NCBI RefSeq assembly: GCF_009914755.1
Contig: NC_060930.1
Source of the DNA: the human T2T-CHM13v2.0 reference genome, Homo sapiens
DNA length: 64,000 nucleotides
Direction: 5' to 3' (one strand)
Shown here piece after piece: positions 55,074-55,900 of this stretch. The notes below the pieces were generated by a model, which did no database searches, was not told the DNA's origin, and saw only the letters and a list, made by a program, of their open reading frames with translations. A program made the translations under genes and the position numbers. The stretch's first letter is position 1, and each line of letters starts with the position of its first letter.

Positions 55074-55254
55074 CCCAGTCAGTCTCGCGCCCCATGACCC
55101 TCTCCTAAAACACGCGCAGTCTCCTCTCTCTTCCCCTTCCTCTCGTGTCTTCCTTGCCTACCAGCCTCACCTGATGGGCTCGTGTTCTCTCCGTCCCCGA
55201 TCCACTCGGGCTCCGGCAGCTGCTGCTTGGGCGCCTTCGGCATCGCGGTGGCAG
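55074..55254 (-). repeat. Inverted duplicate of ABCF1 exon 1 and intron-1 start (partner arm 55656-55836)
   Basis: Manual reverse-complement alignment: 181 bp, 9 substitutions, no gaps; ATG (55243) and donor (55171|55170) retained. Confidence 0.93.
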
Positions 55255-55379
55255 AACTAGAAACGAGTTACAGATAGAAACTAGAATATGCTTTTTAAAA
55301 AAACAAAAAACAAAACAAACAAAAAAACAGTATGCCTCAACTCCTTCATACTAGTAGGAAATTATTATGTTCATTCCTT

Positions 55380-55900
55380 GAGTCTCGCGGCGTCGGGAGG
55401 TCACGGCGTCAGGCTTCCCAGACAGTCGTAAACGCCATGTGTTTACGCGACTGGAGCAAGCGGACGCCGGCCCCGCTCCGTCATTGCAGGCCACGCCTCC
55501 ACTGAACCAGGGCCACGCCCCCGAGATGACGGCGAAGCTCGCACGTGCGCAGCCCGGGGGCGGGGTTGGCCGCGCCAGCTTGGAGAGCCAGCCCCATCGG
55601 GGTTCCCCGCCGCCGGAAGCGGAAATAGCACCGGGCGCCGCCACAGTAGCTGTAACTGCCACCGCGATGCCGAAGGCGCCCAAGCAGCAGCCGCCGGAGC
55701 CCGAGTGGATCGGGGACGGAGAGAGCACGAGCCCATCAGGTGAGGCTGGTAGGCAAGGAAGAAACGAGCAGAGGGGGAAGAGAGAGGAGACTGCGCGTGT
55801 TTTAAGAGAGGGTCATGGGGCACGAGACTGACCGGGCCCGTGCGGGAGTTACTGCGCATGCGTGCCGTGGGCCCGGGAGGAGTTTGCCGGGGAGGAGTGG
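55380..55900 (+). promoter_or_regulatory. ABCF1 CpG-island promoter
   Basis: CpG-rich. E-box GCACGTGC at 55541-55548, GC box GGGGCGGGG, tandem ETS CCGGAAGCGGAAA at 55613-55625, NRF1-type TGCGCATGCG at 55853-55862. Confidence 0.88.
55667..55739 (+). CDS. ABCF1: ABCF1 coding exon 1 (73 nt)
   Basis: GCCACCGCGATG context; CAG|GTGAG donor. Confidence 0.95.

What the first reader, a model, noticed from the sequence alone, without database searches (positions are those of the whole stretch)
55074..55836. ABCF1 promoter is enclosed by a 181-bp inverted repeat: a mirror copy of exon 1 faces outward
Seen: 55074-55254 is the reverse complement of 55656-55836, with 9 substitutions and no indels (~95%). 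The two arms flank a 401-bp spacer that contains the core promoter. The mirror arm keeps GCCACCGCGATG, an open frame ([24 protein letters not shown]; differs from ABCF1 only by P9L and S20N) and the CAG|GTGAGG donor. Identity is graded: 2 mismatches in the 107 bp covering the exon and donor, 7 in the distal 74 bp. CpGs are largely retained. Inference: a divergent transcript from this promoter would begin with a nearly authentic ABCF1 first exon. Its U1 site could stabilise upstream-antisense RNA, by the established U1/PAS promoter-directionality model. The identity gradient suggests selection or arm-to-arm gene conversion. I do not know of a description of this structure.
Basis: partly seen in the sequence, partly recalled or inferred. 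Interest (0 to 1): 0.85.

Follow-up and report, generated by a model that had tools for sequence, protein, structure and literature searches.

The report
Mirrored first exon upstream of ABCF1
A 181-base piece of the human ABCF1 gene (most of its first exon, its splice signal and the start of its first intron) sits as a backwards copy 401 bases upstream, so RNA made in the opposite direction from the same promoter meets a ready-made splice signal; the structure is real and apparently undescribed, but its effect is untested.

Summary
Arms 55074-55254 and 55656-55836 are 181 nt, have 9 substitutions and no indel, and lie 401 nt apart. They are the only two copies in the genome. The right arm is ABCF1 exon 1 from +36 to its end, plus 97 nt of intron 1. 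The mirror therefore lacks the transcription start and the promoter.

On the minus strand the mirror keeps the ATG, 24 codons (P9L, S20N) and the donor CAG|GTGAGG. That donor is by far the best 5' splice site in 2.5 kb of upstream-antisense sequence. It lies 297-330 nt before the first AATAAA cluster.

HGNC has a named lncRNA, ABCF1-DT, at this promoter (PMC7073466). RefSeq has no model for it, and I could not see its exons.

The "identity gradient" is not significant, so neither selection nor gene conversion is indicated.

Best reading: an old replication template-switch duplication, perhaps tens of millions of years old, that handed the upstream antisense RNA a U1 site in one step. Whether that matters is untested.

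Among 74 chr6 promoters surveyed, only ABCF1 has such a structure. No description was found in print.

The parts
55074..55254 (-). Left (mirror) arm: reverse-complement copy of ABCF1 exon 1 (+36 to end) plus 97 nt of intron 1. It is an isolated CpG-rich islet (GC 0.64, CpG o/e 0.83) between CpG-poor flanks.
55171..55254 (-). Mirrored exon part (84 nt). The ATG is at 55243-55241, followed by 24 codons plus 1 nt (73 nt, the same phase as ABCF1 exon 1). There are 2 differences from ABCF1, both non-synonymous (P9L at 55218, S20N at 55185).
55165..55173 (-). Mirrored 5' splice site CAG|GTGAGG (last exon base 55171). It matches 8/9 of the consensus and scores 11.69 bits, the 95th percentile of 163 annotated donors. 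The next best site on this strand within 2.5 kb scores 8.25.
55074..55170 (-). Mirrored intron-1 part (97 nt), carrying 7 of the 9 mismatches.
55255..55384 (.). AT-rich part of the spacer (GC 0.28). It includes an A-rich run at about 55297-55329, which is a pyrimidine tract on the minus strand followed by AGs just upstream of the mirrored exon. A 13-nt stretch (55255-55267) lies between the arm end and TTACAG (55268-55273), which repeats the next 6 nt of the source.
55385..55655 (.). CpG-island core promoter in the spacer (GC 0.70, CpG o/e 1.06). It contains the annotated ABCF1 start 55621 and the first 35 nt of exon 1, which are not duplicated.
   Evidence: annotation given with the finding
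55656..55836 (+). Right (source) arm: ABCF1 exon 1 from +36 to 55739 (start codon 55667), the donor, and intron 1 to 55836.
   Evidence: annotation
54836..54874 (-). First poly(A)-signal cluster on the minus strand: three AATAAA starting at 54874, 54858 and 54841. They lie 297-330 nt downstream of the mirrored donor, in or next to a many-copy interspersed repeat fragment (54852-54924).
55067..55100 (+). Outer junction footprint: the 10-mer CCCATGACCC spans the junction 55073|55074 (55067-55076) and recurs inside the arm at 55091-55100. Local repeats of this length that span a given position occur at 1.7% of 4000 random window positions.
54554..54573 (-). Nearest strong acceptor-like site on the minus strand (pyrimidine tract plus CAG; first exon base 54554), 617 nt beyond the mirrored donor and beyond the AATAAA cluster. 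This is a prediction only.

Best explanation
The left arm is a real, old, one-off inverted duplication of 181 nt taken from the ABCF1 exon 1 / intron 1 boundary. It was set down 401 nt upstream, most likely by a replication template switch: the nascent strand jumped to the other strand about 760 nt ahead, copied back 181 nt and returned. In the four-point model this is type 1-4-3-2.

The copy carries no promoter. It does lie directly in the path of upstream-antisense transcription from ABCF1's CpG-island promoter. It therefore gave that RNA, in one step, a very strong U1-binding 5' splice site about 300 nt ahead of the first poly(A) signals. Under the U1/PAS rule this should suppress early cleavage and allow a longer, spliced and more stable divergent RNA. 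I take that RNA to be the named lncRNA ABCF1-DT.

What is shown: the repeat, its uniqueness, its content, the donor strength and the PAS positions. What is inferred: the template-switch origin, the age (roughly tens of millions of years if there was no conversion), the use of the mirrored donor by ABCF1-DT, and any effect on RNA stability. I see no evidence that the peptide frame or the arm identity is under selection.
For: - Repeat and coordinates. Only two copies in the genome. No homology beyond the arms.
- The 9 mismatches argue against an assembly fold-back artefact.
- Divergence is JC 0.051 overall and 0.076 in the intron part. The Poisson 95% range is 2.3-9.4%.
- The mirrored donor scores 11.69 bits, the 95th percentile of 163 annotated donors. 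Only 0.14% of 6526 GT sites in the window are as good, and the next best on the antisense path scores 8.25. It is the only site matching at least 8/9 of the consensus within 2.5 kb.
- The first AATAAA cluster lies 297-330 nt beyond it. PMC4697840 (Methods passage) treats PAS less than 500 bp downstream of a U1 site as neutralised.
- ABCF1-DT is HGNC's own example of a divergent transcript. HGNC defines such transcripts as lying within 300-500 nt of the coding gene's 5' end (PMC7073466, passages). The mirrored exon lies 367-450 nt from 55621, so such a gene must overlap or cross the arm.
- Template switching that copies nearby sequence in reverse complement and creates inverted repeats is documented in human (PMC5453318, passages).
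- The outer junction is spanned by a 10-nt local repeat, seen at 1.7% of random positions. At the inner junction the source sequence resumes for 6 nt after a 13-nt insert.
- Rarity: in 74 chr6 promoters, ABCF1 is the only one with a non-repeat inverted repeat over 45 nt that has one arm in exon 1.
Against: - I saw no RNA data and not the exon coordinates of ABCF1-DT.
- RefSeq on this assembly lists 583 '-DT' genes but no ABCF1-DT, and no minus-strand model between PRR3 and ABCF1. Support for that lncRNA may therefore be thin.
- One paper lists ABCF1-DT in an expression table only (PMC7810858).
- A word search with the 54-aa mirror reading frame found no named protein (a blank means little).
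- The junction footprints are post hoc and weak.
- The age rests on 9 mismatches and on recalled substitution rates.
- The promoter survey is small and covers only chr6 1.2-32.8 Mb.
- A strong donor needs a downstream acceptor to give a spliced RNA, and the acceptors I list are only pattern matches.
Confidence: 0.5

Rival explanations
1. Neutral fossil with no consequence. The duplication is real, but antisense transcription ends or is degraded regardless. ABCF1-DT, if real, does not use the mirrored donor, and the arm simply decays.
For: There is no RefSeq model on the minus strand here although 583 other -DT genes are annotated. Both coding differences are non-synonymous, and five upstream ATGs precede the mirror ATG. 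The gradient is not significant. A 130-nt AT-rich stretch separates the CpG island from the arm.
Against: HGNC names a divergent transcript at this promoter. By HGNC's distance rule it should reach the arm. The donor is in the top 5% of real donors, and strong donors near a start site are rarely ignored (general knowledge). CpGs are well kept in the left arm (13 of 15 shared), which suggests it sits inside the unmethylated promoter domain.
Confidence: 0.3
2. Maintained structure. The two arms are kept alike by arm-to-arm gene conversion or by selection, so the duplication is much older than its 5% divergence suggests.
For: There are fewer mismatches near the exon and donor (2/107 against 7/74, p = 0.033 for that split). 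CpG positions differ only 2.3 times as often per position as other positions (3/32 against 6/149, p = 0.20).
Against: The split was chosen after seeing the data: 17% of random placements are as extreme, and exon against intron gives p = 0.18. Constraint on the ABCF1 exon alone predicts the same direction. The longest perfect tract is 37 nt. 2 of 2 coding changes alter the peptide.
Confidence: 0.08
3. RNA hairpin. Any transcript that reads through both arms (antisense from inside ABCF1, or sense read-through from upstream) folds into a 181-bp, 95% paired stem. Such a stem could be a substrate for RNA editing or double-stranded RNA sensing, as with inverted Alu pairs.
For: As a single strand, the 763 nt fold into one long stem: -315.8 kcal/mol, against -134.4 +/- 4.8 for 20 shuffles, z = -37.6 (DNA parameters).
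Against: No annotated transcript spans both arms. The two divergent RNAs carry the same sense of the repeat, not complementary senses, so they do not pair with each other. No data on such read-through were available.
Confidence: 0.05
4. DNA structural element. The inverted repeat extrudes as a cruciform, or forms hairpins at replication, and so regulates or destabilises the ABCF1 promoter.
For: The arms are long and similar.
Against: The 401-nt spacer and the 9 mismatches disfavour extrusion. Extrusion and repeat-driven fragility fall steeply with spacer length (general knowledge, recalled). The structure has evidently persisted long enough to gather 5% divergence.
Confidence: 0.04
5. Assembly artefact, or a private structural variant of the reference genome.
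Against: Fold-back artefacts give perfect copies, whereas here there are 9 mismatches, 3 of them at CpG sites. The boundaries are clean and internal to a finished chromosome. A mapped RefSeq enhancer feature (55241-55802) and the ABCF1 models lie across the region without a break.
Confidence: 0.02

Closest known systems
Short-range template-switch mutations (four-point model; Loytynoja and Goldman 2017, PMC5453318, passages read)
   Same: A fragment of nearby sequence is copied in reverse complement during replication. Type 1-4-3-2 creates an inverted repeat able to form a hairpin. Junctions are often untidy.
   Different: The published events are short; the paper filters at a minimum of 14 bp and speaks of changes within tens of bp. 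Here the copied fragment is 181 nt and was taken 400-760 nt away. The ancestral state needed to assign the switch points was not available to me.
U1/PAS control of promoter directionality, and gene birth from divergent transcription (Almada 2013; Ntini 2013; Wu and Sharp 2013). I saw these only as reference-list entries, so their content is recalled. The rule as applied is in PMC4697840.
   Same: The upstream antisense region gains a U1 site ahead of its poly(A) signals. The model says this lengthens and stabilises the antisense RNA and can start a new gene.
   Different: In the model, U1 sites are gained and PAS lost gradually by point mutation. Here a top-grade donor, with a start codon and 24 codons, arrived at once by copying the host gene's own exon.
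BRCA1/NBR2 and NBR1/BRCA1P1 duplicated bidirectional promoter (as described in bioRxiv 10.1101/2025.11.08.687349, passages)
   Same: A partial duplication of gene 5' ends in catarrhine primates left a lncRNA (NBR2) and a pseudogene (BRCA1P1). Their first exons copy those of neighbouring coding genes at a bidirectional promoter.
   Different: That was a duplication of about 4.4 kb which included the promoter itself and is now tens of kb from its partner. Here only 181 nt were copied, without a promoter, in inverted orientation, and inside the same promoter region.
'Janus' at CCDC200 (same preprint, passages)
   Same: An inverted duplication, dated before the ape/Old World monkey split, has one face that overlaps the first coding exon of a gene.
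   Different: It is tied to the RNU2 array and retroviral LTRs, and a separate 4-kb inverted duplication is involved. No claim is made there about a mirrored splice donor feeding a divergent transcript.
Inverted Alu pairs around promoters and exons
   Same: These are inverted repeats of 100-300 nt that enclose a start site. They were common in my survey (GMNN, AIF1, ZFP57, H2BC8/H2AC8 and others).
   Different: Those are copies of a many-copy mobile element and hold no exon. The ABCF1 arms are unique sequence (2 copies), unmasked, and one arm is the gene's own exon.

Membership tests
Template-switch inverted duplication (four-point model, type 1-4-3-2) | A fragment identical to nearby sequence but in reverse complement, with mismatches only and no indels inside it | tested here: met
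   181 nt, 9 substitutions, 0 indels; the source lies 401 nt away
Template-switch inverted duplication (four-point model, type 1-4-3-2) | Order of switch points 1-4-3-2, judged against the ancestral (outgroup) sequence | not testable with these tools
   No non-human or other human assembly was available. The layout is compatible (for the definition).
Template-switch inverted duplication (four-point model, type 1-4-3-2) | Microhomology or templated stutter at the junctions (usual, not obligatory) | tested here: inconclusive
   A 10-nt repeat spans the outer junction, seen at 1.7% of random positions. No spanning repeat is found at the inner junction, where a 6-nt resumption follows 13 nt of insert. 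The analysis is post hoc.
Divergent-transcript lncRNA at a bidirectional promoter (HGNC '-DT' class) | A lncRNA on the opposite strand within 300-500 nt of the coding gene's 5' end | not testable with these tools
   ABCF1-DT is named as the example of the class (PMC7073466).
U1/PAS-stabilised upstream antisense RNA | A strong 5' splice-site motif proximal on the antisense path | tested here: met
   CAG|GTGAGG lies 450 nt from 55621. It scores 11.69 bits, the 95th percentile of 163 real donors, and is the best of all minus-strand GT sites from 55620 to 53121.
U1/PAS-stabilised upstream antisense RNA | No unprotected PAS before or near the U1 site | tested here: met
   There is no AATAAA or ATTAAA between 55620 and 55171 on the minus strand. 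The first three lie 297-330 nt after the donor, inside the 500-nt range treated as protected in PMC4697840.
U1/PAS-stabilised upstream antisense RNA | The transcript depends on U1 binding | not testable with these tools
   This needs U1 blocking or donor mutation in cells.
Cruciform-prone or fragile palindrome | A short spacer between long, near-identical arms | tested here: not met
   The spacer is 401 nt and there are 9 mismatches. The threshold is recalled, not computed.
Transposon with terminal inverted repeats | Many copies in the genome, and a target-site duplication flanking the arms | tested here: not met
   There are only 2 copies, the two arms themselves. The 8 nt outside the arms differ (by eye).
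Processed pseudogene (retrocopy) of ABCF1 | A copy of spliced mRNA without intron sequence | tested here: not met
   The copy runs 97 nt into intron 1 and stops; no exon 2 sequence follows.
Segmental duplication (usual definition: at least 1 kb and at least 90% identity; recalled) | Length of at least 1 kb | tested here: not met
   181 nt, with no extension.

The most novel reading that the evidence does not exclude
A single replication slip created a gene. By mirroring ABCF1's own first exon and donor into the antisense path of its promoter, it turned an unstable upstream antisense RNA into the spliced, named lncRNA ABCF1-DT. The first exon of ABCF1-DT ends at 55171, and its 5' part is 95-98% identical in sense to the ABCF1 mRNA leader. 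That would be a one-step route to gene birth from divergent transcription, distinct from the gradual gain of U1 sites. It could be general: mirrored first exons could be sought at other '-DT' genes.
Probability: 0.4. Interest if true: 0.6.

Novelty: new variant of a known kind. Interest (0 to 1): 0.45.

Why it matters
If ABCF1-DT does use the mirrored donor, the locus is a natural experiment for the U1/PAS model. The same promoter would drive the same exon-end and splice signal in both directions, with different sequence beyond. It would also show that a template switch can supply a complete splice signal and start codon to an antisense RNA at once, which is a new route in the debate on how lncRNAs and new genes arise.

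There are practical points as well:
- The two arms differ at only two exon positions. Short reads from ABCF1 exon 1 can therefore be placed on the mirror, where they would look like minus-strand RNA.
- The paralogous differences correspond to ABCF1 c.26C>T (P9L) and c.59G>A (S20N). These could show up as spurious or conversion-derived variants.
- Promoter constructs that reach more than about 370 nt upstream of the start site include part of the mirror.

Tried and rejected
- Extension of the repeat: blastn with word size 7 between 52000-55450 and 55451-59000 found nothing beyond the 181 nt except Alu-type masked repeats.
- Other copies: none in the genome.
- Defining the empty site from an older repeat: a search with 54700-55400 showed that the many-copy repeat covers only 54852-54924 and does not reach the junction. 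This route failed.
- Known RNA families: nothing in 55074-55836. Only Alu-derived, below-threshold hits at 56699-56977 and a weak SNORD39-like hit appeared.
- Protein evidence for a mirror-exon product: the word search with the 54-aa read-through frame (55082-55243, minus) was blank, with 1 unnamed candidate left out. It only sees proteins of about 30-94 aa, so it says little.
- Polarising the two coding differences with ABCF1 orthologues: not done. The full-length protein would have had to be joined from exons, which the rules bar, and exon 1 alone is too short.
- Gradient: rejected as evidence.
- CpG excess among mismatches: 3/32 against 6/149, p = 0.20.
- Cruciform, transposon, retrocopy and segmental-duplication readings: rejected, see the membership tests.
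- Literature: 'ABCF1-DT' gave 2 papers. 'ABCF1 promoter' gave 6. 'ABCF1 divergent transcript' gave 1. ABCF1 plus 'inverted repeat' gave 5, none relevant by title or abstract. 'Inverted duplication' plus 'first exon' plus 'bidirectional promoter' gave 3. A five-term search gave 2, neither relevant. ABC50/promoter gave nothing on the human promoter. None describes this repeat.
- The pig ABCF1 promoter paper (PMC13761585; abstract and passages) does not contain 'inverted' or 'palindrom'. Its Figure S2 aligns the 500 bp upstream of the ATG in seven species including human, a stretch that in human includes 88 nt of the left arm.
- PMC10760527 (one passage) was irrelevant.
- Survey limits: I drew 180 stretches (202 genes) at random from 887 on chr6, but only the first 60 by coordinate could be fetched. 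The survey therefore covers 74 promoters (71 in L003-L062, plus ABCF1, GNL1 and PRR3) in chr6 1.17-32.79 Mb, with TSS -2500/+1500, blastn word 11 and E <= 1e-5.
- Survey rows with an arm in exon 1 other than ABCF1: E2F3 (26 nt, both arms inside exon 1), H2BC8/H2AC8 (27 nt), H3C12/H2BC17 (25 nt) and ZNF311 (45 nt, masked repeat). All other enclosing pairs were mostly masked repeats.
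Full report
THE OBSERVATION. The inverted repeat is there exactly as described. The repeat finder gives arms 55074-55254 and 55656-55836: 181 nt, 95% complementary, 401 nt apart. A base-by-base comparison gives 9 substitutions and no indel: 7 transitions and 2 transversions, with 3 at CpG positions. 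Chance is excluded, with blastn E = 1.7e-64 in the window and 2.7e-75 in the whole genome. The two arms are the only copies in the genome. A sensitive blastn found no homology beyond the arms; all other inverted matches nearby are Alu-type masked repeats.

WHAT THE ARMS CONTAIN. With the annotation supplied (ABCF1 exon 1 at 55621-55739, coding from 55667), the right arm is exon 1 from its 36th base to its end (84 nt) plus the first 97 nt of intron 1. The copy therefore lacks the start site, the first 35 nt of the 5' UTR and the whole promoter, all of which lie in the spacer.

Read on the minus strand, the left arm keeps several features:
- the identical 36 nt from the arm start through the start codon;
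- an ATG at 55243;
- 24 codons ([24 protein letters not shown]) that differ from ABCF1 by P9L (CCG>CTG, a CpG transition) and S20N (AGC>AAC);
- the donor CAG|GTGAGG, with 55171 as its last exon base.

Both coding differences change the peptide. With only two substitutions in 73 nt, an open frame is expected anyway, so nothing points to selection on a peptide. If antisense initiation is in the CpG island, five ATGs with short frames precede the mirror ATG, which argues against efficient translation.

COMPOSITION. The left arm is an isolated CpG-rich islet (GC 0.64, CpG o/e 0.83, 14 CpGs). Its left flank is CpG-poor (GC 0.40, o/e 0.34). A 130-nt AT-rich stretch (55255-55384, GC 0.28) separates it from the main CpG island (55385-55655, GC 0.70, o/e 1.06). 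Thirteen CpGs are shared by the arms, two are right-only and one is left-only. CpG positions differ 2.3 times as often per position as others (3/32 against 6/149, p = 0.20). That is much less than the roughly tenfold excess expected for methylated CpGs (a recalled figure). It hints that the left arm has lived inside the unmethylated promoter domain, but the numbers are small.

THE "GRADIENT". Fisher's test for that split gives p = 0.033. However, the split was chosen from the data, and 17% of 2000 random placements of 9 mismatches give an equally extreme best split. The natural split, exon part 2/84 against intron part 7/97, gives p = 0.18. Constraint on the real ABCF1 exon alone halves the expected divergence there. 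The longest perfect tract between the arms is 37 nt, which is short for present-day conversion. I therefore do not accept the gradient as evidence of selection or conversion, though neither is excluded.

AGE AND ORIGIN. The divergence is JC 0.051 over all sites and 0.076 in the intron part. The Poisson 95% range for 9 differences is 2.3-9.4%. Set against recalled genome divergences (human to Old World monkey about 6%), the duplication would be roughly tens of millions of years old if no conversion occurred. That predicts presence in apes and probably in Old World monkeys, and absence from rodents and pig. I could not test this, because no other assembly was on hand.

The layout fits the template-switch model of Loytynoja and Goldman (PMC5453318, passages): a fragment copied in reverse complement from sequence a few hundred bases ahead and inserted with no loss of the source. 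Their type 1-4-3-2 creates an inverted repeat. The fragment here is much longer than the short events they describe.

Two junction features fit an untidy replicative event:
- At the outer junction, a 10-mer spans 55073|55074 and recurs 24 nt further on inside the arm. Such repeats occur at 1.7% of 4000 random positions.
- At the inner junction, the next 6 nt of the source reappear after a 13-nt insert.

Both observations are post hoc and weak.

THE ANTISENSE PATH. On the minus strand from 55620 down to 53121, the mirrored donor is the only site matching at least 8/9 of the splice consensus. I built a weight matrix from 163 annotated GT donors in the sequence I held, leaving out ABCF1 exon 1. 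With it the donor scores 11.69 bits, which is the 95th percentile of real donors. Only 0.14% of 6526 GT sites in the window score as well, and the next best on this path scores 8.25, far away at 53498.

No AATAAA or ATTAAA lies between the promoter and the donor. The first three AATAAA (54874, 54858, 54841) come 297-330 nt after it, in or beside a many-copy repeat fragment. PMC4697840 (Methods passage) discounts PAS less than 500 bp downstream of a U1 site as neutralised. The underlying papers (Almada 2013, Ntini 2013, Kaida 2010, Berg 2012, Wu and Sharp 2013) I saw only in reference lists.

Two further sequence features are predictions only:
- A pyrimidine tract with AGs lies just upstream of the mirrored exon on the minus strand, so the exon could also act as an internal exon.
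- A good acceptor-like site lies at 54554, beyond the AATAAA cluster.

IS THERE A DIVERGENT TRANSCRIPT? Yes, by name. HGNC's naming guide uses 'ABCF1-DT, ABCF1 divergent transcript' as its example of the class. It defines such genes as lying within 300-500 nt of the coding gene's 5' end on the other strand (PMC7073466, passages). The mirrored exon lies 367-450 nt from 55621, so a gene meeting that rule must start in, or run across, the left arm.

One RNA-seq paper lists ABCF1-DT in a table (PMC7810858). RefSeq on this assembly has 583 '-DT' genes but not this one, and has no minus-strand model between PRR3 and ABCF1. I could not see the exon coordinates, so the key link, whether exon 1 of ABCF1-DT ends at 55171, remains an inference.

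HOW UNUSUAL IS IT? In 74 promoters (71 there, plus ABCF1, GNL1 and PRR3), ABCF1 is the only one with a non-repeat inverted repeat longer than 45 nt that has an arm in exon 1. The others are 25-27-nt matches in E2F3 and in histone genes, one 45-nt masked repeat (ZNF311), and many Alu pairs. Zero of 73 other promoters bounds the frequency only at a few per cent.

OTHER READINGS. As a single strand, the 763 nt fold into one long stem (-315.8 kcal/mol; shuffles -134.4 +/- 4.8; z = -37.6). A transcript crossing both arms would therefore be a long double-stranded hairpin, but none is annotated. The two divergent RNAs carry the same sense of the repeat and cannot pair with each other. A cruciform in duplex DNA is unlikely with a 401-nt spacer. 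Transposon, retrocopy and segmental-duplication readings fail their defining features. An assembly artefact is unlikely given 9 mismatches. No Rfam family matches the region. A word search with the mirror frame was blank.

WHAT IS KNOWN. The nearest described cases are these:
- short template-switch mutations (PMC5453318);
- the catarrhine duplication that produced NBR2 and BRCA1P1 from the 5' ends of NBR1 and BRCA1 at duplicated bidirectional promoters;

None has a gene's own first-exon end and donor mirrored into the antisense path of the same promoter. Seven literature searches found no description of the ABCF1 repeat. The pig ABCF1 promoter paper does not mention one. Its supplementary alignment of the 500 bp upstream of the ATG in seven species, which I could not open, may show whether the arm is absent outside primates.

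VERDICT. The structure is real, unique in the genome, and uncommon among promoters. Its origin as a template-switch duplication is well supported in kind, though the switch points are untested. The functional reading, a donated U1 site that makes ABCF1-DT possible, fits the sequence and the existence of the named lncRNA, but it rests on no RNA data seen here. Selection or conversion is not indicated. I rate it a new variant of known kinds, of moderate interest, with a cheap decisive test: overlay the ABCF1-DT exons and check primate alignments.

Noticed in passing
window 40307-40379 (GNL1 exon 1 coding part, minus strand) and 55171-55243: The coding part of GNL1 exon 1 is 73 nt, the same as that of ABCF1 exon 1 and of the mirrored exon. 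A hypothetical splice from the mirrored donor to GNL1 exon 2, on the same strand 15 kb downstream, would keep the GNL1 frame. This is a one-in-three coincidence and no such transcript is annotated.
   Followed up: no
window 54852-54924: A fragment of a many-copy interspersed repeat (229 first-look candidates genome-wide, 83-95% identical over about 40-65 nt). It is not marked as a masked repeat of 100 bases or more in the annotation. It carries two of the three minus-strand AATAAA that form the first poly(A)-signal cluster of the antisense path.
   Followed up: partly
window 55542-55547, 55613-55626, 55853-55862: In the ABCF1 promoter there is a CACGTG box and a tandem CCGGAAG/CGGAAAT pair at the annotated start. 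A TGCGCATGCG palindrome lies 17 nt beyond the outer end of the right arm, so it was not copied into the mirror. Any factor names for these motifs would be recalled; none was tested.
   Followed up: no
window 53000-53109 / 53252-53361 and 56683-56976: An inverted pair of Alu-type masked repeats lies upstream (110 nt, 85%). An Alu in ABCF1 intron 1 gives below-threshold Rfam hits to SRP RNA, mir-3135, mir-1285 and mir-1268.
   Followed up: no
window 54169-54228 (+): A weak SNORD39/SNORD55-like match (21.2 bits against a gathering score of 35, E = 0.27). It is probably chance.
   Followed up: no
L032 (chr6:26,084,693-26,084,719 / 26,085,886-26,085,911) and L038 (chr6:27,759,968-27,759,992 / 27,763,515-27,763,539): Divergent histone gene pairs share near-perfect 25-27-nt inverted repeats at the far ends of their single exons. 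These are presumably the conserved histone 3' end element (recalled, not tested).
   Followed up: no
whole-genome gene table: RefSeq on T2T-CHM13 lists 583 genes named '-DT' (23 on chr6) but not ABCF1-DT, although HGNC uses that gene as its example of the class.
   Followed up: partly
window 55241-55802: A RefSeq 'H3K27ac hESC enhancer' feature covers the last 14 nt of the left arm, the whole spacer and most of the right arm.
   Followed up: no
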